A stretch of 64,000 nucleotides of DNA from a virus (lineage: Duplodnaviria > Caudoviricetes). This document shows positions 164-63,806 of the stretch, piece after piece; the first letter of the stretch is position 1; the number at the start of each line of letters is the position of its first letter. Made by a program: the position numbers and the translations under genes. A model generated the notes under the pieces. The model saw only the letters and a program-made list of their open reading frames with translations. It had not been told where the DNA came from and did not search any database. The stretch is from the IMG/VR virus record IMGVR_UViG_3300049595_005065; one strand, 5' to 3'.

Positions 164-1198
164 GTGTTTGGTATTGAACAGGACCGTATGAAAGATTGGA
201 GAATCGCCAGCGTGAGCACACGCACTGCGCAGCGATTCTCCATTCGGTACGTCCTTTATCCGGCGTCGGTGTTACGGCGCCACAGCAAAGAAATGCGCTT
301 CGAGTGCATCGTGCGCATGGTCCATCGTGTTCACGGTCTCTGGTTTCGCCGCGTCAAGGACCTGATCACCAACCGCATGTGGCAGCCTGGCGACCTGCAC
401 GCAACCCGGAGCTCGCAACTGTTCACGTTTCGGCGGGTCATGAACTGCCGCCCGTCCAGCGTGTACTTTCGGTTCGGCAACACCGGACGGCTGCGCCCCT
501 GCAAGCAGCACCGCGTGTGTCCGTTCTGCTGGGGCCGCGTCGCGGCACTCCTGTACCGGCGTTTCAAGCGGCGGATCACCAGCGCGCGCAAGACGCACGA
601 CAAGCTGGTGCTGACGTGTCGCGTGGTCACGTATCCCGTGCGCGTCAAGAACTTCAACAACGCGCAGGGCCTCAGCCCGGAAGAAATGCTCGCCCAGGCG
701 CGCCGTCTTCGAGACCTCTTCACCAAGCAGCGCGCGGATTACCGGCAGCTGGTGAAACAACTCCAGCGCAAAACCGTTGGTTCAGCCTGGCGGGTACTGG
801 TCAATCCGCAGGAGGACGGCTGGAACATTGAGGTCCGCCAGCTGTTTCTGGCCCGGCCCCGCGCACAGCTCCCGAGGATCAAATGGCGCGGCGCCAAGAC
901 GACGCTGCTGGAGTCCGTCAAGTTTTCCGACGACGAGCGGATCTACGCCCTGCTGGGCGCGTTCATGACGTATCCTGCGGGCCTGCTGACCGCGTATGCC
1001 GAGCTGACGGCCGTCTATCTGCAGGCCAGCTACGGACTGCGGCTGGCAAGCGGCACGGGCGTGTTTCGCACCTGCGGCGATGGACTGTGCAAGGCGTTCA
1101 AGAAGGACAAGCTCCATGGCGAAGCGACCACAACTCCGGAAGCAAAGAAAGAAGGCAGTGATGTCCTCGACTTTGCTGAGGATCCAGTACCTGTGTGA
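164..1198 (+). CDS. Hypothetical basic protein with Zn-binding CxxxRxCPFC motif; distant Rep_1/IS91-like fold possible
   Basis: GGGAGG RBS before GTG; CKQHRVCPFC motif; no HUH histidines. Confidence 0.6.
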   Translation: MFGIEQDRMKDWRIASVSTRTAQRFSIRYVLYPASVLRRHSKEMRFECIVRMVHRVHGLWFRRVKDLITNRMWQPGDLHATRSSQLFTFRRVMNCRPSSVYFRFGNTGRLRPCKQHRVCPFCWGRVAALLYRRFKRRITSARKTHDKLVLTCRVVTYPVRVKNFNNAQGLSPEEMLAQARRLRDLFTKQRADYRQLVKQLQRKTVGSAWRVLVNPQEDGWNIEVRQLFLARPRAQLPRIKWRGAKTTLLESVKFSDDERIYALLGAFMTYPAGLLTAYAELTAVYLQASYGLRLASGTGVFRTCGDGLCKAFKKDKLHGEATTTPEAKKEGSDVLDFAEDPVPV

Positions 1199-2255
1199 GC
1201 GGCATTTCGGCGGCAACATCGGCGCCTTTGCGCGGGCCGTCAAGATCCACCGCGAAACAGCGTCCGATATCCTGCGCGGCAAGACCACGCCCCAGATGCT
1301 GGTCCTGATCAAGCTGATTCGTTCCCGCCTGGTGAACGCCGAGTGGCTGCTCTGCGGCACGGGGCCCATCAGTCCGGACGAGCCCGGAGACGCGCTGCCA
1401 CACTTTGCGCTGGCCAGTGAGATCAACAGCTCGCACGCGTTTCTCGACAGCGCAGCGGTGCAGTTTGTGATTCCGCGACCCGTCCAGGCGCCCCGCGCGC
1501 CTGGTTCCGGCAAACTGACCAACGACGCCCTGCTGCAGGCGCGCCTCATCCACCAGGCGAGAAGCCACCACAAGCCCGTCGTGCTGTTTCTTGGCCGCGA
1601 GGCCGTTGAACAGAATGTCGGGCCTGTCGTGGTTCAACTGCTGCGCAAGGGTTACGTCACCGGCGTGGCGCTCAGCAGTGCCGCGGCCGCCCTGGACTTT
1701 GAGCAGGCGATTTTTGGCGGGCACCTGCCGGACAGCTCGCGGCGCGCCGAGATGGCGGAGCTGAACCGCGCCGCCGTGCGGGGCGCGCAGTCTGGCCTGG
1801 GCTACGGCGAAGCGCTGGGCCGCTGGAGTTACCCGGCCAGCGCACAGCGCGACCAGAGCGTGATTGCGGTAGCGTACGAACTGAACGTGCCCGCCACGAT
1901 TCATCTGGCGCTCGGAGACACTCCGGCGCATTTCTTTCCGGCCAACAACGCCGCCGAACTGGGCGCGGCGCTGGGGGCCGTGAGTTACGTGGACACGCTG
2001 ATCTTTGCCGAGGAGGTCCGGCAGATGGCGGGCACGCCCAGCGGCGTGTTCCTGGCCGCCGACACCGGCGGGCACAGCGCGCAACTGTTTGCCAACGTAC
2101 TGGAGGCCGTGCATAGCGATAAAGAAACCCACATCAACGACTCGACATTGTCCGTGATCGGCAGGGAGTACCGGCATACGCTCCCTGCGCTACTGACCGC
2201 ATGTGATGCCGTTTACGACGGGAGTGCAGATGACAACAGATTGCGTCGGAAGTGA
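1161..2255 (+). CDS. XRE/CI-type HTH fused to a deoxyhypusine-synthase-like (DHS-like) domain
   Basis: N-terminal GNIGAFARAVKIHRETASDILRGKT...VNAEWLLCGTG; C-terminal KPVVLFLG...GYVTGVAL...GLGYGEALG...SVIAVAYELNVPATIHLALG resembles bacterial DHS-like proteins. Confidence 0.6.
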   Translation: MSSTLLRIQYLCERHFGGNIGAFARAVKIHRETASDILRGKTTPQMLVLIKLIRSRLVNAEWLLCGTGPISPDEPGDALPHFALASEINSSHAFLDSAAVQFVIPRPVQAPRAPGSGKLTNDALLQARLIHQARSHHKPVVLFLGREAVEQNVGPVVVQLLRKGYVTGVALSSAAAALDFEQAIFGGHLPDSSRRAEMAELNRAAVRGAQSGLGYGEALGRWSYPASAQRDQSVIAVAYELNVPATIHLALGDTPAHFFPANNAAELGAALGAVSYVDTLIFAEEVRQMAGTPSGVFLAADTGGHSAQLFANVLEAVHSDKETHINDSTLSVIGREYRHTLPALLTACDAVYDGSADDNRLRRK

Positions 2256-3357
2256 CGTACTAGACGATTTCCTGAAGGTGGCAGCGCCCGCGTCAAAGGA
2301 CAGCCACCGATTGATGCTTGCCGCCGCGCTGCTGGAGGTTCTCCGGCTAGCGGGCAGCGAGTCAAAGACCCCGGGTATCGCCCGGGCCAAAATGGTCACG
2401 GCGGCAGAGCAGCTGGCCGCTTATGACTTTTCGGGGCTCACGTTCTCGATTACCCGCGCCACGCGCAGCGACACCATCAAAGATATCTTTGACCAGGTCG
2501 GCACGCCCCCGGAACAGCGCGACCGCGTGATCCTTGAAGCCCTGCGCCAGTTCGTGAACGTGGTGCAGCTCGAGCCCGAGGTCTCCAGCCAGGAGCTGTT
2601 CAACCAGCTCGTGGCCGAAGCGGCCATAGGCTTCAACGCCCCGCCGCTCCCAGCGCCACCTCCCACGCCGCCGGTTCGCGTGGCAAAGAAAGCGCCGGAG
2701 CTGTCGCAGTCCAAGAACCTCTCCGGCGTGTTCCAGGCGGCCAAGTTCTCGCCCGAGGGTAGCCCCGCCGTGGAGCTGCTCAACTGGCAAAGCGAGTATC
2801 CGGACGCCAAGGGCCTGGGTCCGCAGCTTGCGGCGCTCGCGCTGGCTGAGACAGGCGGCGAGATGAAGATCCTCACGGAGACCGGCGAGTTCGTCTGGCT
2901 GCCCAAGGAAACGTTCCTGCTCGCCAAGGCGGCACCCGAGGAGTACGCCATGGTGCCTCCAGCGCTGTTGGCCAGCGCCCGCATTGCCGCGCCGTGGAAC
3001 TGGACCGCCGATGGTGACATGGAGGCGCGATATGACGCGCGCTTTGGCCGTTTTACGCAGCCTGTTCTGTTTGCCAGCTACGGCCCCGACTTTGTGGGCG
3101 CGCTGCAAGACGTCTTCGATCGACCTGGTAATTACCCGCCGGGGAGCGCTGTCGCAGTCACGCTCAACGTTGACGGAACTCCATATTCCGTTACGCTGGA
3201 CGCCCGTGTTTCCAAAACAGGTCCTTACGTGACGGCAAAGCTGCTGGACGCCAGCGAGAACATCGTGATGCGGCTTGACACGCCCCGCCAGTTCTCGCCG
3301 CGGGGCGTATATTTGTTTCCACTGCCGGAAACGGCTGTCGCGCTACTGGTGTTTTAA
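2230..3357 (+). CDS. Hypothetical protein
   Basis: GGAG RBS, ATG at 2230, stop coupled to next start. Confidence 0.7.
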   Translation: MTTDCVGSDVLDDFLKVAAPASKDSHRLMLAAALLEVLRLAGSESKTPGIARAKMVTAAEQLAAYDFSGLTFSITRATRSDTIKDIFDQVGTPPEQRDRVILEALRQFVNVVQLEPEVSSQELFNQLVAEAAIGFNAPPLPAPPPTPPVRVAKKAPELSQSKNLSGVFQAAKFSPEGSPAVELLNWQSEYPDAKGLGPQLAALALAETGGEMKILTETGEFVWLPKETFLLAKAAPEEYAMVPPALLASARIAAPWNWTADGDMEARYDARFGRFTQPVLFASYGPDFVGALQDVFDRPGNYPPGSAVAVTLNVDGTPYSVTLDARVSKTGPYVTAKLLDASENIVMRLDTPRQFSPRGVYLFPLPETAVALLVF

Positions 3358-4880
3358 TGCCGTATCGGCCACCTAAAGTGCTTGTGCTGGGCGACCTGAT
3401 GCTCGATCTGTGGATTTCCACGCGAGCCCGGGCTGCCAATCCGGAAGGTGCGGCGATGATCGCGACCGGTTCGTCCGAGGAGCGCGACGCGACGCTCGGC
3501 GGAGCCGGACTGGTCGCGAGCCTGCTGCGCAGTATCGGGCTGCGGGTCAAGGTCATGGGAAAGCTCGGAAACGACACCCAGGGCGCCACGGTCCACGCGC
3601 TGCTCCACGAGTTCGGCCTGGGTTGCAAGAACATCACGTTCGCCGACGACGTCGTTACGCCCGCAAAGATGCGTTTCATCAACGAGCACGGTGTGGTGGC
3701 GTACCGCTACGACGAAGAGCGGGCCCAGGCAGAGTATCTGGCCGACAACTCCAGTCACTTTGACTTCGATCTGTTCAGCAAGCACGCGGAGCTGGCCGAC
3801 ATTGTGGTCGTCGCCGATTACGGCAAAGGCTACTGCCAGACGCACGGCAGGAAAATCATCGAGGCGGCCCGCTACTACCGGGCCCTGACGGTGGTCGGCG
3901 CCAAACCGGCCGTGCTGGCCGAGTACGAGGGGGCGGACGTCGTCAAGGTCAACGCCGCCGAGGCCCGAGAGTTTCTCGAGCTGCAGGGTCTGCCCTGGTC
4001 GGCCGACCGGCACGAGACGGTCAAGATGCTCTGCGAGCGCATGAACTGCGCAGTCGCCGTGATGACCGCCTCGCGCAACGGCGCGGTGTACGCCCTGCGC
4101 CTGGGCGACTCGGGCTACATGACGTTCCACACGGCGGCCAAGCCCTGCTTTCCCAGCGTCGTCAATTGCGTCGGCGCGGGAGACGCGTTCATGGCCGGAT
4201 TCGTGGCTGATCTCGTGCTGCCTCCCAAGGCCAGGCGGCGCATCGAGCTGCTCAAGCTCCATACGGCCGTGGCTGCGGGTGCCGCAACGGCTGCCCAGTA
4301 CCTGACCCGCGGTTACCCTGAGATCGATCCCGCCACGCCGTTTCTTGCGGCTTACAACCGGCGCGTCGAGCTGCTCAGTGCCGCGAAGATTGTTCCGTTC
4401 GACCAGGCCGCCGCGCTCTGCCAGGCCTGGCGGTCGACAAACGAAACCGTTGTCTTCACCAACGGTTGTTTTGACCTGCTCCATCACGGGCACGTCAGCC
4501 TGCTCGAACAGGCCAAGCAGCAGGGCAAGCGGCTGGTCGTCGCCGTCAACAGCGACCAGAGCGTGCGCCTGCTCAAGGGGGCCCAGCGCCCCGTGCAAAG
4601 TTTCGAAACCCGCGCCAAGGTGCTTGCGAGCCTTGGCTGCGTCGATGCGGTGGTGATGCTCGACGAAGACGATTTCGCCGCGCAACCAGCGCTGCGCGCC
4701 ATGATCACGGAGTTCGTCCCGGACGTCCTGGTCAAGGGCGCGCAATACAAGGAGGAGGACATCGTCGGTTTCGAGGAGATGGTAAATCGCGACTCCCCGG
4801 GCCGAATCTGGCGTTGTCCGATGGTGGACAACATCAGCACCACAAGCACAGTCGAAAGAATTCACAATGCCCAGCGATAA
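3357..4880 (+). CDS. hldE: Bifunctional heptose-7-phosphate kinase / heptose-1-phosphate nucleotidyltransferase (HldE/RfaE-like)
   Basis: PfkB motifs VLVLGDLMLD and GAGDAFMAG; nucleotidyltransferase motifs TNGCFDLLHHGH, VAVNSDQSVRLLKG..RP and VLVKG. Confidence 0.9.
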   Translation: MPYRPPKVLVLGDLMLDLWISTRARAANPEGAAMIATGSSEERDATLGGAGLVASLLRSIGLRVKVMGKLGNDTQGATVHALLHEFGLGCKNITFADDVVTPAKMRFINEHGVVAYRYDEERAQAEYLADNSSHFDFDLFSKHAELADIVVVADYGKGYCQTHGRKIIEAARYYRALTVVGAKPAVLAEYEGADVVKVNAAEAREFLELQGLPWSADRHETVKMLCERMNCAVAVMTASRNGAVYALRLGDSGYMTFHTAAKPCFPSVVNCVGAGDAFMAGFVADLVLPPKARRRIELLKLHTAVAAGAATAAQYLTRGYPEIDPATPFLAAYNRRVELLSAAKIVPFDQAAALCQAWRSTNETVVFTNGCFDLLHHGHVSLLEQAKQQGKRLVVAVNSDQSVRLLKGAQRPVQSFETRAKVLASLGCVDAVVMLDEDDFAAQPALRAMITEFVPDVLVKGAQYKEEDIVGFEEMVNRDSPGRIWRCPMVDNISTTSTVERIHNAQR

Positions 4881-5130
4881 TTTTGATTTTGGCGGACATA
4901 TCGAGGACGACACCGACGTTTCGCCACGCCGCTACGCCGACGATGAAGAAGTTGCGCTGTCGCCGTACGGTCTGCTCATCAACCGGATCGGTTTTCAGCG
5001 CGGCCGGGAGATCTACGACGCCATGGTGCGAATTGCCAACAGAGCCGTGGAAGAACACGGCGGCAAACCGGGCGTCGTTTTTGATGTTGACGGCGGCCGA
5101 TTTGTAGCGATCAACGAGCCTGGCGCGTAA
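4867..5130 (+). CDS. Small hypothetical protein
   Basis: 87-aa ORF coupled to hldE. Confidence 0.6.
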   Translation: MPSDNFDFGGHIEDDTDVSPRRYADDEEVALSPYGLLINRIGFQRGREIYDAMVRIANRAVEEHGGKPGVVFDVDGGRFVAINEPGA

Positions 5131-5138
5131 ACCGGAGA

Positions 5139-5741
5139 GTGACGATGTACCTGTTCCTGGACACGGAAACGGGCGGCCTGGAAACGCACAACAGCCTGCT
5201 CACCGTGGCGGCGATTGTCGCAGACCGCGAGTTCCGCCCGCTTCGTGGCGGGACGGCGGAAGACACGCTTTACCTGGAGATCCGCCACCCAACATACATC
5301 GTCACTCCCGAGGCGATTACGATCAACAAGATCGACTTGGTGCACCACAGCGCCCGCGGGCTCAAACTGCCCGAGGCGCAGCAGAAGTTCGCCGAGTTTC
5401 TCCAGCGCGCGCACCAGCTGTGCGGACAGAAGCTCATTCCGGGCGGGCACAACCTGACCTTCGACATCGGCTTCATCTGGGAGCAATTGATGTACGAGCA
5501 GGAGTGGAAAAAATACGTCACGCACCCCGCGCTGGACACGGCGATCGTGGCGCAGTTCTTCAACGCGGCGGGCGTTCTCAGCTGCCGTTGCAACCTGACG
5601 GCGGTCTGCGAAGCCCTGGGCATTCCGCTGGAGAATGCGCACAACGCCATGGTGGACACCAAAGCGAGTCTTGAAGTGGCTCGTACGCTCAGCCTGTTGG
5701 CGCGACCGGCGCCCCAGGAATCAAGGCTGGCCGAAGTCTAA
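5139..5741 (+). CDS. DEDDh 3'-5' exonuclease (DnaQ/RNase T-like)
   Basis: ExoI LFLDTETGGL, ExoII GHNLTFD, ExoIII HNAMVDT. Confidence 0.9.
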   Translation: MTMYLFLDTETGGLETHNSLLTVAAIVADREFRPLRGGTAEDTLYLEIRHPTYIVTPEAITINKIDLVHHSARGLKLPEAQQKFAEFLQRAHQLCGQKLIPGGHNLTFDIGFIWEQLMYEQEWKKYVTHPALDTAIVAQFFNAAGVLSCRCNLTAVCEALGIPLENAHNAMVDTKASLEVARTLSLLARPAPQESRLAEV

Positions 5742-5743
5742 AG

Positions 5744-5822
5744 CCGCACGTGTCGGCTCGGCACCCAAGTCGTGAGTGGGTCATAACCACGAGGTCAGTA
5801 GCGTTTCATTTGCTTCGTTCTA
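5744..5822 (+). pseudogene. Degenerate tRNA-Met(CAT)-like sequence
   Basis: D-like stem CGGC/GTCG; anticodon arm GTGG-GTCATAA-CCAC followed by GAGGTC; T arm and acceptor poorly paired. Confidence 0.3.
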
Positions 5823-5864
5823 AACGCGTACTGGAAGTCGTAACAAGGAAGGATCCTGTGGCGC

Positions 5865-5928
5865 GGGCCCCGGGCGCAATTCGGTTGCGCGGAGTATCTC
5901 CTCCAGGTTCAAATCCTGGCGGGGCTCA
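5865..5928 (+). ncRNA. tRNA-like cloverleaf with a truncated anticodon arm
   Basis: 8-bp acceptor GGGCCCCG/CGGGGCTC (one G-U); 1-nt linker; D arm GCGC-AATTCGGTT-GCGC; mini arm GGAG-TAT-CTCC; canonical T arm CCAGG-TTCAAAT-CCTGG; no encoded CCA. Confidence 0.65.
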
Positions 5929-5951
5929 TTACAGAACAGGCAGGCTAATCA

Positions 5952-6560
5952 ATGCACCCTAACTTTCGCCACATGTCGCCGCAAGAAGTCCAGTTCATCC
6001 GTGCTTATGCGCTGGCATTGAAGAGGCATTTTGGCGAGTTTTGCAGCGCGCTGCACCTTATGCGAACGGACGTTGGCGTGAAATGCCCCGTGCGGGCGGC
6101 AGCGCTTGCGCGGGAATTGGAGGAATTTCAGGCACAGTTTGAGCACGCGATGACTGCAGTTGCCGACAAGCACCAGCCAAAAGTGAAAGAGCTGCCGGAG
6201 TTTCCCGGTGTTGATGCTTTGGTGCAGTTAATTCAAATCTCGTTCTTTGCCGTCAGCGACGAAAAGAACTCGGCCAAGTTTGACGGGCACTCGGGCTGGT
6301 ACAGCGGGCATCCGCTTTCCTGGGAAACCATCTGGGAAAAAGAACACAATCCGCAGGAACCGCCGCCCAAAGCTGGACAACCAATGACGGCCATCCTAAA
6401 CGCTTTCTTCAAGCTGCTTGGGTTTTCGAGCACGATCAACCATGTTCCGGGTTTTCCCTACAAAAAGTTGCCGCCGCCAGAAATGCACCAGAGCTACGAG
6501 GACGATTACGACGAGGACGAAGACGACAACAACTTTGATTACTACACTGACGAGGGCTAA
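5952..6560 (+). CDS. Hypothetical protein with acidic C-terminus
   Basis: 202-aa ORF from the ORF track. Confidence 0.65.
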   Translation: MHPNFRHMSPQEVQFIRAYALALKRHFGEFCSALHLMRTDVGVKCPVRAAALARELEEFQAQFEHAMTAVADKHQPKVKELPEFPGVDALVQLIQISFFAVSDEKNSAKFDGHSGWYSGHPLSWETIWEKEHNPQEPPPKAGQPMTAILNAFFKLLGFSSTINHVPGFPYKKLPPPEMHQSYEDDYDEDEDDNNFDYYTDEG

Positions 6561-6563
6561 AAC

Positions 6564-7748
6564 GTGACTTCGCTGTTTGTGTTTACCGCCGACCTTCACC
6601 TGGAGGACGGCGCCTGGAGCACCAGGCCCAGCATTTACGGCGACGCGTATTACAGCTTCGCCCAGATCGTGGACTACTGCATCGAGAAGCGGCTGCCCCT
6701 GATCCTGGGCGGCGACGTGCTCGAGAAGAAGAGCAACTCCGCCCGGCCGATCGCCAAACTCTGCGAAGGCTTGTCCCGGATGCAGCAGGCTGGCGTGCCG
6801 GTCTACTACATCCAGGGCAATCACGAGTACGACCGCAACGCCCCCTGGCTGTCGGTCCATCCCTGGCCGCAGCACATCCACAGGCAGAGCGTGGAGATCC
6901 AGGGCCATCCGGTCTACGGCCTGGACTGGCTGCCCCGCGGCGAGATTCAGGAGGCCTTCAAGGCGGTGCCCGAGCGCACGCACATCCTGATCACGCACCA
7001 GGTCTGGGAGGACCTGATGAAGGGCCTGGGCCGCACCGAGTGCAGCATCGCCGACGTCCACAACGTCCGCACTGTGCTGGCTGGCGACTTCCACGTCACG
7101 ACGACGGTCGAGGGCATCAACGCCGACGGCCTTCGCACCGAGATGCTCTCGCCCGGCTCAATCTGCATGCAGGACTTGGGCGAGTGCCCGACCAAGTACT
7201 TCTTCGTGATCAACCGGAAGGAAGAAGGCGGCTTCGAGTTCGAAGCGCAAAAGCTGCGTACACGGCCGTTTTTGAACTACGCAGTCAAGGAGCAGGAGCT
7301 GCTGGACCGCCTCTGTGCCGGTGAGTTGGCGACGACCATCGCCGAGGCGCAGGCGCAATGCTCGAATGTCGAGCGCGTCCTGGGCATCGACAAGCCGATC
7401 GTCCGGATCAAGTTCGACAAGCGGCTTCCCGACGCGTTCCTGCGGCTGACCACGGCCGTGGGCGACTCGGCGCACCTGTTCTGCGAGGCTTTGGCCGACA
7501 AAAACGCGGTGCAGCAAAGCAAGAACAACAACCGCGACGGCGCCCGCAACGACGTGCTGGCGGCCCTCTCCGACCTGCTCGGCGCAGACTCGGAGGAGTA
7601 CAAACTCGCCGAGCGCCTGGTCCGGGCCGAAGATCCGGGCAAGGAACTCGAGGCGTTTTTCAACGCGTTTTTCACCGAGGAGGTTCCCTGTGCAATTGTT
7701 GAGACTGGAAGTTCGGAACTGGGTACACCATCGCCAGCGGGTGTGTGA
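6564..7748 (+). CDS. sbcD: SbcD/Mre11-like metallophosphoesterase nuclease
   Basis: Motifs ADLHL, GGDV, QGNHE, ITHQ and AGDFH; adjacent to SbcC. Confidence 0.9.
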   Translation: MTSLFVFTADLHLEDGAWSTRPSIYGDAYYSFAQIVDYCIEKRLPLILGGDVLEKKSNSARPIAKLCEGLSRMQQAGVPVYYIQGNHEYDRNAPWLSVHPWPQHIHRQSVEIQGHPVYGLDWLPRGEIQEAFKAVPERTHILITHQVWEDLMKGLGRTECSIADVHNVRTVLAGDFHVTTTVEGINADGLRTEMLSPGSICMQDLGECPTKYFFVINRKEEGGFEFEAQKLRTRPFLNYAVKEQELLDRLCAGELATTIAEAQAQCSNVERVLGIDKPIVRIKFDKRLPDAFLRLTTAVGDSAHLFCEALADKNAVQQSKNNNRDGARNDVLAALSDLLGADSEEYKLAERLVRAEDPGKELEAFFNAFFTEEVPCAIVETGSSELGTPSPAGV

Positions 7749-48899: not shown

Positions 48900-49245
<346 letters not shown>

Positions 49246-49248
49246 TTG

Positions 49249-61670: not shown

Positions 61671-63806
61671 ATGCCGACTCCCCTGACCCGTGTTTTCCGG
61701 CTGCTGCGCTTCTTTGCGACGCGGCGGCGCGCCGTGAACGAAACGACTGGCGTGCCCACGGATCTGCTGCCAGGCGAGATCGCTTACGGCGAGGACGAGA
61801 ACACGGTCTACATCGGCCGCACTGATGGCTCAGTAGGTATTCTCGCCTCGGGCGGCTCTGTTGGCCCGACTGGTCCCACGGGACCGACAGGCCCCGCAGG
61901 GACGCCCGGTGCCACAGGACCGTCTGGTGCGCGCGGTTTTGTCGGAGCCACCGGCGCCACGGGCGTTACTGGCGCCACGGGGCCCTCGGGAGCTTCCGGC
62001 GCGCGTGGTCCCACAGGAGCTACCGGCGCGACAGGCGCAACAGGTCCGTCTGGTCCAAGCGGTGTACCGGGTTTGCAGGGACCGACGGGCTTGCAGGGCC
62101 TGCCCGGCTCGACGGGGCCGACCGGTCCAACTGGTCCCGCCGGGCCTACTGGTGTTGGTGCGACAGGCGCCACAGGGGCCACGGGACCGACCGGTCCAAC
62201 TGGTCCCGCCGGGCCTACTGGTGTTGGTGCGACAGGCGCCACAGGGGCCACGGGACCGACGGGGCCTTCTGGCGCCGCAGGGTCTACTGGCCCATCGGGC
62301 GTGGGCTTTAACTGGCGCGGAGAATATCAGAACCCAGAAGTCTACGGGCCCTACAACGTCAATGATGTTGTGCTGTTCAACGGCAGCGCGTACATCTGTT
62401 TGCAGTACATGTCAGGTTTGATTGACCCGGAAACAATTCCTGACGGGCCCGATTATTGGGCGCTGTTTGCGGCAGGCGGAACTGCGGGATTGAACGGCGC
62501 GCCCGGCGCTACGGGACCAACAGGCCCAGCGGGCGCCACGGGACCCGCAGGCCCGACAGGCGCTACAGGCCCCACAGGCCCCGCGGGGCCGACAGGCGCG
62601 ACAGGCGCGACGGGACCTAGCGGTTCGGTTGGTGCCACGGGACCAACAGGGCCGTCAGGCGCTGACGGCAAAAGCGTCACGATTCTGGGCAGCTACAGCA
62701 GCGAGAGCGCGTTAATTGCAGCGCAGCCGACTGGTGCCGAAGGCGACGCATATCTTGTTGCTGGCAATTTGTACGTTTGGTCTTCAAACACGGCGACGTG
62801 GACTAACGTTGGCAATATCCAAGGGCCGCAAGGCGCCACCGGTCCGACCGGTCCGACTGGCGCTACTGGCGCTACTGGGACCCCGGGCGCAACTGGCGCA
62901 ACTGGCGCTACGGGGCCGACCGGCCCTCAAGGCGCGACCGGTGCCACTGGTCCCACCGGGCCAAGCGCGCTTAGCGCTGATTTCACCGTGCTGGCCGTTT
63001 CGCAGGGCGCGTACAGCGACGGCATGGTTATTTCGGCGGGCACAGCGATTGAGACGATCATCAAGAACATGCTGCAGGTTGTGGTGCCGCCAAACTACGC
63101 CGCGCCAACGCTTGCGCTAGGGAGCAATATCGCGATTACGGAGATCGGCACGACGGTCTCGCCTACGCTTACGCCGACCTGGACACAGAACGACGCCGGA
63201 ACAGCGACGGCATACACTCTCAAGCGCGGCGGCTCGGGCGGCACGACGATCTACAGCGCGGCAAGCCCGGCGGCCTACACCGACTCCTCGGCGTATCAGC
63301 TTACGACCGCGACGCAGTACTACGCGCGCACTGATTACGGCCAGGGCCCGCTCAAGCAGGACAACACCGGCGCTGACTTTCCAACTGGTCGTATCGCCGC
63401 AGGCTTTAAGGAAGCTACGGCAACGCTCACGCCGCGGCGGCGCGTGTTTTACTGGGCTGACACTAGCACGGATATCCCAACGACCAGGGCGCAGTTTATC
63501 GCGGCGCACGCGACGCCTGTGTTTTTTATCGCCTCGGGGCTTGAGATTGCGATTCCCCAAGGCGCCAAACGCGTGGTGATTGCCGTACCGCAGAGCGCTG
63601 GTTTGACCCTGAACACAAACTCAATCTTCTATGTGCAGCTCAACGGTTTTGTAGGTGACACGTTTACGTTGTTGAATCCGGCACCGCTGATTGGCGGCGC
63701 AAGTGATTACTCGCCGATCGCCTACACTGTGTACTACTACATCACGGGCTCGGGTTTTGGCAGCGCCGCCACGTATCGTCTGCTCTTTACGGTGAACGCC
63801 ACATGA
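61671..63806 (+). CDS. Collagen-like (G-P/A-T) fibre protein, probable tail fibre
   Basis: Three Gly-X-Y tracts; N-terminal [13 protein letters not shown]; WRGEY..YNVNDVV..NGSAYIC. Confidence 0.8.
62118..62255 (+). repeat. Perfect 69-bp tandem duplication within the collagen tract
   Basis: 62118-62186 equals 62187-62255, encoding [23 protein letters not shown]. Confidence 0.9.

What the first reader, a model, noticed from the sequence alone, without database searches (positions are those of the whole stretch)
5865..5928. tRNA-like RNA with canonical acceptor, D and T arms but no anticodon loop
Seen: a 64-nt cloverleaf with an 8-bp acceptor, a 1-nt connector, a GCGC D stem, a perfect TTCAAAT T loop, and a 4-bp/3-nt mini-hairpin in place of the anticodon arm. 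All stems still pair, which argues against random decay. Established: anticodon-less tRNA mimics exist (tmRNA TLD, bacterial Y RNA/YrlA, mascRNA). Inference: a decoy for tRNA-sensing or tRNA-cleaving defences, or a processing signal for RNase P/Z.
Basis: partly seen in the sequence, partly recalled or inferred. Interest (0 to 1): 0.8.

Follow-up and report, generated by a model that had tools for sequence, protein, structure and literature searches.

The report
tRNA-derived stub capping phage RNA
The 64-base element is a real, conserved remnant of a phage tRNA gene that has lost its anticodon arm; it forms the tail of a larger folded RNA and most likely serves as a cutting and end-forming signal for the host's tRNA-processing enzymes, not as a decoder.

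Summary
Window 5865-5928 folds as a cloverleaf with acceptor, D-like and T arms and only a 4-bp/3-nt stub where the anticodon arm belongs (MFE -36.7 kcal/mol, z -4.8).

It is not free-standing. It is the 3' module of a composite RNA of about 205 nt (5724-5928): hairpins P0 and P1, an H-type pseudoknot with an invariant core, a long covarying hairpin P3, helices P4/P5, then the tRNA-like unit.

I found 15 distinct versions in uncultured phages of about 200 kb:
- Ten end in an anticodon-less module. Two carry the stub, seven have a 5-6 nt linker, and one is a third design.
- Five carry the same 5' domain followed by a full tRNA-Gln(UUG) or tRNA-Thr(UGU).
- No phage copy that reaches far enough has the 5' domain without a tRNA-shaped partner.

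The module therefore descends from a real tRNA. Its stems are kept by compensatory changes, and it is 89% identical between two phages whose flanking genes are 61-66% identical.

Best reading (inferred, about 50%): a tRNA-shaped handle for RNase P, RNase Z and the CCA-adding enzyme that sets the 3' end of the upstream RNA, as in MALAT1-mascRNA and plant mitochondrial t-elements. Expression is untested.

The 16S-like 15-mer beside it is not conserved. First readers in this scan separately flagged the homologous element in a sister phage genome, and follow-up reports describe comparable tRNA mimics at the ends of unrelated phage RNAs.

The parts
5724..5739 (+). P0 hairpin (5 bp, 6-nt loop). In this phage it overlaps the last codons and the stop codon (5739-5741) of the exonuclease gene. 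In L126 it lies after the stop.
   Evidence: A4 helix 1: 90% of cells paired, 4 of 5 pairs with changes on both sides. Position relative to the stop codons read.
5743..5757 (+). P1 hairpin (GCCG/CGGC, variable loop).
   Evidence: A4 helix 2: 91% of cells paired, one pair with a change on both sides.
5763..5792 (+). H-type pseudoknot core. S1 is 5763-5767 with 5777-5781. S2 is 5770-5774 with 5788-5792. The 13-mer AGUCGUGAGUGGG is invariant.
   Evidence: The outer S1 pair occurs as A-U, C-G and G-C. S2 is 100% paired but invariant apart from U-A/U.G. The same core is present once per genome in 5 IMG/VR phage records. An alternative hairpin GUGG-loop-CCRC cannot be excluded for the S2 3' strand.
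5795..5834 (+). P3, a long hairpin with a bulged G (5828) and a variable tip.
   Evidence: A4 helix 5: 93.5% of cells paired, 11 of 12 pairs with changes on both sides. Also recovered by single-sequence folding.
5839..5863 (+). P4 (5839-5845 with 5857-5863) enclosing P5 (5847-5849 with 5854-5856). The 5' strand of P4 carries the 16S-like 15-mer (5834-5848). The 3' strand ends 1 nt before the tRNA-like unit.
   Evidence: A4 helix 6: 75.6% of cells paired, 6 of 10 pairs with changes on both sides. The 15-mer equals E. coli 16S 1491-1505, but only in the window and L122.
5865..5928 (+). tRNA-derived module. Acceptor 5865-5872 / 5920-5927, D-like arm 5874-5890, anticodon-stem stub 5891-5901, T arm 5903-5919, unpaired A5928. 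No CCA is encoded.
   Evidence: Fold. A5 counts: D-like and T stems 100% paired, 8 pairs with changes on both sides, 0 of 500 shuffles reach the covariation score. One copy in the window and one per related genome.
5139..5741 (+). Upstream DEDDh (RNase_T family) exonuclease gene. Probably on the same transcript, since the RNA begins inside its 3' end.
   Evidence: Pfam PF00929, E 1.6e-09. No promoter-like or terminator-like site lies between the gene and the RNA.

Best explanation
Window 5865-5928 is a tRNA-derived module: the acceptor/T-arm stack plus a D-like arm that can build the tRNA elbow, with the anticodon arm cut down to a stub. It is the 3' end of a conserved composite phage RNA of about 205 nt (P0, P1, pseudoknot, P3, P4/P5, tRNA-like unit), probably transcribed together with the upstream exonuclease gene.

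Shown:
- The module descends from a genuine tRNA gene at this site, Gln(UUG) or Thr(UGU) in sister phages.
- It is single-copy.
- It is kept by purifying selection with compensatory changes.
- It always accompanies the same 5' domain.

Inferred:
- Host RNase P cuts between C5864 and G5865. The upstream RNA then ends inside helix P4 with a 1-nt overhang, which would resist 3' exonucleases.
- RNase Z or another nuclease frees the small tRNA-like piece and gives the downstream message a new 5' end.
- The module thus works as a tRNA punctuation mark and 3'-end-forming device, kept after the decoding function was lost.

The function of the pseudoknot domain itself is unknown.
For: 1. Fold and significance.
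2. Homologous RNA after the same gene in L001 and L002, and in L117-L122, L128 and L136.
3. The same 5' domain is followed by full tRNAs in L126, L130, L131, L133 (Gln-UUG) and L134 (Thr-UGU) by ARAGORN. The Rfam tRNA model was run on L126 and L134 and scored 59-65 bits, whereas the armless versions fail that model.
4. 5' domain: 88.7% of cells paired, 23 pairs with changes on both sides, 0 of 500 shuffles reach this, and slid controls give about 36%.
5. tRNA-like unit: 91% paired, D-like and T stems 100%, T-loop U54-U55-C56-R57-A58 and D-loop GG invariant, linker free to vary.
6. Window against L136: tRNA-like unit 89% identical, exonuclease gene 66%, downstream gene 61%.
7. Co-occurrence: 15 of 15 distinct full-length phage copies of the 5' domain have a tRNA or tRNA-like partner. 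A 16th copy, L132, is cut off by the contig end. A tRNA occurs without the domain (L124/125). Where the function is gone, the DNA is deleted down to a 3' remnant (L135) or to nothing (L123, L137).
8. A possibly related pseudoknot+hairpin core in proteobacterial genomes and prophage-like contigs is followed by terminator-like hairpins with U runs instead of a tRNA. This fits a role of the partner in 3'-end formation.
9. No promoter-like or terminator-like site flanks the RNA.
10. Precedents for tRNA-like processing signals: MALAT1/mascRNA (PMC8457004) and plant mitochondrial t-elements (PMC1920247).
Against: - No expression or end-mapping data exist, so cleavage by RNase P or RNase Z is pure inference.
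- The acceptor/T stack is 13 bp (8+5, or 7+6 in L128) rather than the canonical 12, and the outer acceptor pairs are frayed in half the relatives. The real cleavage site is therefore uncertain.
- Helix P4 abuts the acceptor. It could hinder RNase P, or it could mean that the RNA works as one uncut piece.
- Homology of the bacterial core to the phage 5' domain rests on sequences pre-selected by a 21-base pattern, so their CM E-values are inflated.
- Conservation of tRNA shape is equally expected for a decoy or docking role.
Confidence: 0.5

Rival explanations
1. Decoy or sponge. The released or attached tRNA-shaped piece soaks up a host factor that recognises the tRNA top half. Candidates are a defence nuclease or toxin acting on the acceptor end, a modification enzyme, or the tRNA quality-control machinery. 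This would protect host or phage tRNAs.
For: The tRNA elbow and acceptor/T stack are conserved while the anticodon is dispensable. The phage also carries its own tmRNA and few tRNAs, so it invests in translation upkeep. The element is single-copy and conserved.
Against: Most known anti-phage tRNA nucleases cut the anticodon loop, which is absent here (established knowledge). This reading does not explain why the module is always fused to the same 5' domain, or why a full tRNA fills the same slot in sister phages. No defence or counter-defence gene was recognised next to it.
Confidence: 0.15
2. One uncut functional RNA. The tRNA-shaped 3' domain docks the pseudoknot domain onto tRNA-binding machinery (CCA-adding enzyme, an aminoacyl-tRNA synthetase, EF-Tu or the ribosome), in the way of plant-virus 3' tRNA-like structures or the tRNA-like domain of tmRNA.
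For: P4 ends 1 nt from the acceptor, so the two helices could stack into one continuous unit. Pseudoknots upstream of a 3' tRNA-like end recall plant-virus 3' ends (own knowledge). The 13-bp stack resembles special-purpose tRNAs such as tRNA-Sec (weak Rfam match).
Against: In five sister phages the partner is an ordinary tRNA. To decode, it must be cut from the 5' domain, so the ancestral state was a processed RNA. The possibly related bacterial versions of the core lack any tRNA part. No CCA is encoded, and no conserved identity element is present: the G.U pair shifts position between relatives.
Confidence: 0.15
3. A decaying tRNA pseudogene with no function of its own. It survives only because little time has passed or because it overlaps signals for the neighbouring genes.
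For: It derives from a tRNA by deletion. The outer acceptor pairs are frayed in several relatives. Other lineages have lost the tRNA altogether.
Against: Ten distinct armless versions occur across phages whose exonuclease is only 59-90% identical in protein to the window's. All keep the D-like and T stems 100% paired, with compensatory changes and invariant T-loop and GG residues. Identity is 89% where the flanking genes are 61-66% identical. Real decay at this site looks different: it leaves a 3' remnant or nothing.
Confidence: 0.07
4. A non-canonical decoding tRNA. The arm at 5874-5890 can be read as a 5-bp stem (GCGCA/UGCGC) with a 7-nt loop AUUCGGU carrying U33 and anticodon UCG. That would make a D-armless tRNA-Arg with the stub as a variable arm.
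For: This reading works for the window and L136, by direct reading. The loop differs from the tRNA-Gln anticodon loop of sister phages by about one base. MAFFT aligns this arm to the anticodon arm of the full tRNAs.
Against: In the other eight armless relatives the loop is 6, 7, 8 or 9 nt with different triplets, while GG and the first A stay fixed. That is D-loop behaviour, not anticodon-loop behaviour. The connector to the acceptor is 1 nt. Bacterial translation is not known to use D-armless tRNAs (own knowledge). The Rfam tRNA model gives no match.
Confidence: 0.03
5. The 15-mer at 5834-5848 would copy 16S 1491-1505 and bait factors or toxins that act on helix 44.
For: The 15-mer is identical to E. 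coli rrsB 1491-1505. Among random 209-nt pieces of the window, a match this long was seen only in pieces that contain this site.
Against: Only the window and L122 have the 15-mer, and they are not sisters on the exonuclease tree. Three relatives keep 11 nt, a length seen by chance in about 4% of random pieces, and seven keep 8 nt or fewer. The segment is the 5' strand of covarying helix P4, which explains its conservation. The partner strand does not reproduce the 1404-1411 pairing register (and direct reading).
Confidence: 0.03

Closest known systems
MALAT1/NEAT1 mascRNA-menRNA tRNA-like elements (Rfam RF01684; PMC8457004)
   Same: A tRNA-shaped unit with acceptor and T arms and a reduced anticodon arm sits directly 3' of a structured stabilising RNA element. 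RNase P cleavage at its 5' edge creates the mature 3' end of the upstream RNA. mascRNA-menRNA is the best, though sub-threshold, Rfam match for the window and two relatives (23.9-24.6 bits).
   Different: The score is far below the gathering threshold of 42.5 bits, so this is no sequence relative. mascRNA lies in vertebrate nuclear lncRNAs, whereas this is a DNA phage of bacteria. The upstream element here is a pseudoknot plus hairpins, not a triple helix. Cleavage is untested here.
Plant mitochondrial t-elements (PMC1920247)
   Same: These are non-canonical tRNA-like cloverleaves, recognisable by the T-arm motif GGTTCRANYCC, that lie within polycistronic transcripts and direct RNase P/Z cuts forming mRNA 3' and 5' ends. 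The window's T arm (GGTTCAAATCC) fits that motif. The derivation from tRNA genes is also the same.
   Different: The genetic system differs (organelle against phage). t-elements are scattered and poorly conserved. This module is single-copy, tied to one RNA domain, and under clear purifying selection.
Canonical phage tRNA-Gln(UUG) and tRNA-Thr(UGU) at the same locus in sister phages (L126, L130, L131, L133, L134)
   Same: Same genomic slot, same 5' domain in front, a similar T arm, and an acceptor related to the L134 tRNA. These are the evolutionary source of the module.
   Different: The window's unit lacks an anticodon arm, has an 8+5 stack and a 1-nt connector, and fails the Rfam tRNA model.
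tmRNA tRNA-like domain and bacterial Y RNA (YrlA)
   Same: Both are anticodon-less tRNA mimics that keep the acceptor/T stack and the elbow.
   Different: In tmRNA the acceptor is formed by the two ends of a long RNA that carries a tag reading frame. A true tmRNA lies elsewhere in the window (48900-49247). In YrlA the ends form a Ro-binding stem and the acceptor is closed by a loop (own knowledge). Here the acceptor is open at the 3' end, and no match to any Rfam Y-RNA family appeared.
Phage T4 RNAC and RNAD, small stable RNAs from the tRNA gene cluster (PMC3014915)
   Same: They are phage-encoded small RNAs of unknown role made alongside tRNAs.
   Different: There is no sequence or structural comparison available here. 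The paper states only that they exist and that their role is unknown.

Membership tests
tRNA (Rfam RF00005) | Four-arm cloverleaf including an anticodon arm with a 7-nt loop; score at or above 29 bits | tested here: not met
   There is no RF00005 match at the gathering score or at E up to 10. The full tRNAs at the same site in L126 and L134 score 59-65 bits. The anticodon arm is a 4-bp/3-nt stub.
tRNA (Rfam RF00005) | Conserved elbow residues: T loop U54-U55-C56-R57-A58 closed by G53-C61, and GG in the D loop | tested here: met
   All ten armless versions keep GG-UUC-R-A-N-U-CC and a GG in the first arm's loop.
mascRNA-menRNA (Rfam RF01684) | Score at or above 42.5 bits | tested here: not met
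   23.9 bits in the window and 24.1-24.6 bits in L121 and L122.
mascRNA-menRNA (Rfam RF01684) | RNase P cleavage at its 5' edge forms the 3' end of the upstream RNA | not testable with these tools
   No RNA run was listed for this sequence.
Plant-type t-element (functional class) | tRNA-like fold with the T-arm motif GGTTCRANYCC inside a longer transcript | tested here: met
   GGTTCAAATCC lies at 5906-5916. No promoter-like or terminator-like site flanks it.
Plant-type t-element (functional class) | Transcript ends coincide with the edges of the element | not testable with these tools
   No RNA data are available.
tmRNA (Rfam RF00023) | Tag reading frame and pseudoknots between the two acceptor strands | tested here: not met
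   Both acceptor strands lie within 64 nt with no reading frame between them. The window's tmRNA is a separate gene at 48900-49247.
Bacterial Y RNA / YrlA | The 5' and 3' ends pair into a Ro-binding stem and the tRNA-like part is internal; the gene is usually next to rsr | tested here: not met
   The 3' flank is not conserved and does not pair with the 5' part. No Y-RNA family matched at E up to 10. No Ro/TROVE domain appeared among the neighbouring proteins scanned.
16S rRNA decoding-site mimic | Conserved copy of both strands of the top of helix 44 with the A1492/A1493 internal loop | tested here: not met
   The 15-mer occurs in 2 of 13 family members tested, an 11-mer in 3, and 8 nt or fewer in the rest. 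The segment pairs within P4 in a different register.

The most novel reading that the evidence does not exclude
A widespread, uncatalogued phage pseudoknot RNA has, in a clade of freshwater jumbo phages, replaced the usual terminator with a captured tRNA gene. It then stripped that tRNA of its anticodon arm, leaving a dedicated RNase P/Z/CCA handle. That would be the first bacterial-virus counterpart of the MALAT1-mascRNA and t-element strategy, with the evolutionary intermediates (full tRNA, stub, no arm) still alive in sister phages. A bolder variant is that the uncut RNA uses the tRNA-shaped end to dock its pseudoknot domain on host tRNA-binding machinery or on a tRNA-directed defence protein.
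Probability: 0.4. Interest if true: 0.78.

Novelty: new variant of a known kind. Interest (0 to 1): 0.62.

Why it matters
tRNA-shaped processing signals are established in eukaryotic nuclei, in organelles and, from my own recollection, in a mouse herpesvirus. I found no description of one in a bacteriophage. Four literature searches and Rfam 15 gave nothing for either module.

This family offers a natural series at one locus: full tRNA, tRNA with a stub, and tRNA with no anticodon arm. It shows which parts of a tRNA are needed once decoding is given up. It also gives a testable case of how large phages might define RNA ends.

It further exposes a pseudoknot RNA core that may be shared by many proteobacterial prophages and whose function is unknown.

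For annotation, it shows that ARAGORN can call such elements as ordinary tRNAs (here 'tRNA-Ala') while covariance models miss them entirely.

Tried and rejected
- No whole genome is held for the window. blastn of 5000-7000 against the INPHARED phages gave no match.
- The exact T-arm/acceptor pattern gave nothing in IMG/VR. The first core pattern and the D/T/acceptor pattern gave only L001 and L002 there, and the latter gave nothing in genome contigs.
L055 is an ABC-transporter coding sequence, and L044 is a short look-alike of the core only.
- Sequencing runs: seven DNA holders from lake and freshwater metagenomes. No RNA holder was listed in either search.
- Leader-trailer extension of the acceptor, as in MALAT1, exists in L001 but is not general (direct reading).
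Its loop varies in sequence and length across the family. As an alternative to S1/S2 it cannot be excluded, because the paired bases never vary. S1 is supported by a covarying outer pair.
- The ORF at 5750-5962 (70 aa) overlapping the RNA is rejected as a gene. Relatives differ by indels that are not multiples of three in P3 and in the linker.
- The number of independent arm losses could not be settled. On the exonuclease tree the full-tRNA clade is nested among armless lineages. The AU test does not clearly reject one split between full-tRNA and other lineages (p 0.053), and the locus is mosaic.
- Whether the first arm descends from the D arm or from the anticodon arm is ambiguous at the sequence level. 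I call it D-like by its behaviour.
- The weak TilS_C hit of the 384-aa protein at 2203-3357 (E 0.006, below cutoff) was not supported by PHROGs or PDB sequence searches and was dropped.
- The phage's own RNA polymerase, reported by earlier notes outside this window, could not be confirmed from the genes I scanned. I do not use it as evidence.
- CM hits at 62878 (collagen-like coding repeat) and 49218 (tmRNA T arm) are not further copies.

Full report
**What is at the coordinates.**
- The acceptor has 8 bp, including one G.U pair.
- A one-base connector leads to a GCGC/GCGC stem with a 9-nt loop that contains GG.
- A 4-bp/3-nt stub follows.
- The T arm has a textbook UUCAAAU loop.

The MFE is -36.7 kcal/mol, z is -4.78, and none of 200 shuffles folds as well. 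Rfam's tRNA model does not match at any threshold. The best match is mascRNA-menRNA at 23.9 bits, well below its cutoff of 42.5 bits. ARAGORN's 'tRNA-Ala(tgc)' at 5851-5928 uses 14 extra bases that stay unpaired, and it is not reproduced in relatives. I treat it as an artefact.

**Setting.** The window is a 62% GC piece of an uncultured phage. No genome is held for it and nothing similar exists in INPHARED. The element follows a DEDDh (RNase_T family) exonuclease gene at 5139-5741. That gene lies behind an HldE-like kinase/cytidylyltransferase gene and ahead of Mre11/Rad50-like genes. A tmRNA gene lies at 48900-49247. No promoter-like or terminator-like site flanks the element.

**The element is the tail of a larger RNA.** Two IMG/VR phage records (L001 in a 204-kb record, L002 in a 154-kb record) have exonucleases 72-73% identical in protein to the window's. 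Both keep the whole stretch from the end of that gene to the end of the tRNA-like unit.

Fetching contigs for further exonuclease homologues and scanning IMG/VR with the invariant core gave 15 distinct full-length versions and one cut off by a contig end. On a 14-sequence alignment (A4) I placed six helices:
- P0, which overlaps the last codons of the exonuclease gene in this clade but lies after the stop codon in L126;
- P1;
- pseudoknot stems S1 and S2 around the invariant 13-mer AGUCGUGAGUGGG;
- the long hairpin P3;
- P4 enclosing P5.

Overall, 88.7% of cells pair and 23 pairs show changes on both sides. None of 500 shuffles reaches these values, and slid controls pair at about 36%. P3 and P0 covary heavily. 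The outer S1 pair occurs as A-U, C-G and G-C. S2 never varies except U-A to U.G, so it is compatible with the model but unproven.

**Where the tRNA-like unit comes from.** In L126, L130, L131 and L133 the same 5' domain is followed by a complete tRNA-Gln(UUG). In L134 it is followed by a tRNA-Thr(UGU) whose D arm is identical to that of the Gln tRNAs. ARAGORN calls all five. The Rfam tRNA model was run on L126 and L134 and scored 59-65 bits.

In L124/125 a tRNA-Gln follows the exonuclease gene without the 5' domain. L135 keeps only what looks like the last 14 or so bases of the tRNA. L123 and L137 have nothing.

The armless versions fall into three designs:
- A, with the stub: the window and L136.
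- B, with a 5-6 nt linker: L001, L002, L117, L118, L119, L121, L122.
- C: L128, with a Gln-like acceptor, a GAGG/CCUC first stem, and a 7+6 stack instead of 8+5.

The window's T arm and acceptor are closest to the L134 tRNA. The stub sits where the anticodon stem should be.

The deletion, however, is old and its product is maintained.

**Evidence for selection on the unit.** Across the ten armless versions (A5), the first stem and the T stem pair in 100% of cells. Eight pairs show changes on both sides, and none of 500 shuffles reaches the covariation score. The T loop and the loop GG are invariant, while the linker varies freely. Only the inner six acceptor pairs are solid.

Between the window and L136 the unit is 89% identical, while the exonuclease gene is 66% and the downstream gene 61% identical.

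The same comparison shows a mosaic junction. The window's exonuclease gene and 5' domain group with design B (79-83% identical). Its tRNA-like unit and downstream gene group with L136. The unit is single-copy in the window and in three related records. The 5' core is single-copy in five records.

**Which arm survived.** MAFFT aligns the first arm to the anticodon arm of the full tRNAs. In the window and L136 it can even be drawn as a 5-bp stem with a 7-nt loop carrying UCG. In the other eight versions the loop has 6 to 9 nt, with a fixed first A and a fixed GG. That is how D loops behave. In design A the stub occupies the anticodon position. I therefore call the arm D-like by role and leave its ancestry open. 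A decoding role is unlikely.

**The 16S look-alike.** I confirmed that 5834-5848 equals E. coli rrsB 1491-1505. Only the window and L122 have it, and they are not sisters on the exonuclease tree. Three relatives keep 11 nt, a length seen by chance in about 4% of random pieces, and the rest keep 8 nt or fewer. The segment is the 5' strand of covarying helix P4. I regard the match as a coincidence built on a structural constraint.

**A wider family for the core.**
- *Where found.* A looser pattern found the same core in four other IMG/VR contigs and in alpha- and betaproteobacterial genomes. The IMG/VR copies lie next to terminase or tail genes. In Lacimonas the copy lies between the capsid and small-terminase genes.
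- *Structure.* There the core is followed by a P3-like hairpin with the same bulge position. Several copies (L143, L146, L149, L152, L156) then carry a terminator-like hairpin with a U run, and none carries a tRNA.
- *Statistical support.* A covariance model of the phage core scores the betaproteobacterial copies at E 1e-7 to 8e-5 and most of the others at E 2e-4 to 0.7. The weakest include a coding-sequence hit (L154) that I regard as chance. These sequences were pre-selected by the pattern, so I treat homology as likely for the betaproteobacterial copies and only plausible for the rest. No Rfam family covers them.

**Mechanism.**
- *Argument.* A real tRNA behind the 5' domain must be released by RNase P. 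The ancestral RNA was therefore cut exactly at the domain/tRNA boundary. After the anticodon arm was lost, the retained parts are what RNase P, RNase Z and the CCA-adding enzyme read: the acceptor/T stack, the T loop and the D-loop GG. The 5' domain is never found in these phages without such a partner, and its possible bacterial cousins carry a terminator there instead.
- *Predicted cleavage.* The most economical reading is that the unit is a tRNA-shaped end-forming and punctuation signal. A cut at 5864/5865 would leave the upstream RNA ending in helix P4 with a one-base overhang, a shape that resists 3' exonucleases. It would also separate that RNA from the downstream message.
- *Precedents.* This is the logic of MALAT1-mascRNA (PMC8457004) and of plant mitochondrial t-elements (PMC1920247).
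- *Confidence.* All cleavage steps are inferred, and no RNA data could be found. I put this reading at about 50%. The rest is shared among a decoy role, a docking role in an uncut RNA, and minor alternatives. The function of the pseudoknot domain remains unknown.

**Novelty and standing.** Four literature searches found no description of such a phage element. The nearest statement is that T4's RNAC and RNAD from its tRNA cluster have unknown roles (PMC3014915). A 2023 catalogue of candidate viral RNAs mentions tRNA-like candidates only in general terms (PMC10690425).

First readers in this scan flagged the homologous element in a sister genome. Follow-up reports describe comparable tRNA mimics at the ends of other phage RNAs. 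These are leads, not evidence, but they suggest a recurring phage strategy.

I class the finding as a new variant of a known kind.

Noticed in passing
window 48900-49247 (+): A phage-encoded tmRNA (Rfam RF00023, 121 bits) with predicted tag peptide GTFNSAPALAA. It is the only other tRNA-related gene in the 64-kb window.
   Followed up: partly
L143-L153, L155, L156, L158 (IMG/VR contigs and alpha/betaproteobacterial genomes): The invariant pseudoknot core of the 5' domain, plus a P3-like hairpin, occurs in prophage-like contexts: after terminase gpA, and between the capsid and small-terminase genes. Several copies are followed by terminator-like hairpins with U runs, and none by a tRNA. No Rfam family covers it. 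It may be a widespread uncatalogued phage RNA.
   Followed up: partly
window 5864/5865 junction; compare L117 and L136: A mosaic breakpoint. The exonuclease gene and 5' domain resemble design-B phages (79-83% identical), whereas the tRNA-like unit (89%) and the downstream gene resemble L136. The boundary between the two RNA modules coincides with a recombination junction.
   Followed up: yes
L134:2230-2301: The tRNA in this slot is Thr(UGU), but its D arm is identical to that of the tRNA-Gln genes of sister phages. One tRNA gene appears to have switched anticodon and acceptor identity.
   Followed up: no
L135:2097-2153: Only what looks like the last 14 or so bases of the tRNA (T-stem 3' strand plus acceptor 3' strand) remain after the exonuclease gene. 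This is an example of real decay at this locus.
   Followed up: no
L001, L119, L121, L122, L117, L002, just 3' of the tRNA-like unit: In design-B relatives a C-run 5-7 nt downstream can pair with the GGGG of the acceptor 3' strand. This gives an alternative hairpin that would compete with the acceptor stem. It is absent in the window and L136.
   Followed up: no
window 1080-5130, and L130 and L133 upstream of the RNA: A conserved gene block precedes the RNA even in distant phages that lack the exonuclease gene. It comprises an HTH protein of about 390 aa, a protein of about 380 aa, and a small protein of 87-91 aa that is 37-38% identical between these phages. All are of unknown function.
   Followed up: partly
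window 61671-63806 (+): A 711-aa protein with collagen-like Gly-X-Y repeats (Pfam Collagen, E 7.5e-35). Its repetitive DNA gave a false weak hit to the tRNA-like model.
   Followed up: partly
G001 (204-kb record of L001): A complete sister phage with terminal repeats carries only four canonical tRNAs: Thr-UGU twice, Lys-UUU and Asn-GUU. It has no tRNA-Gln, so the lost decoding function was not replaced by another copy.
   Followed up: yes
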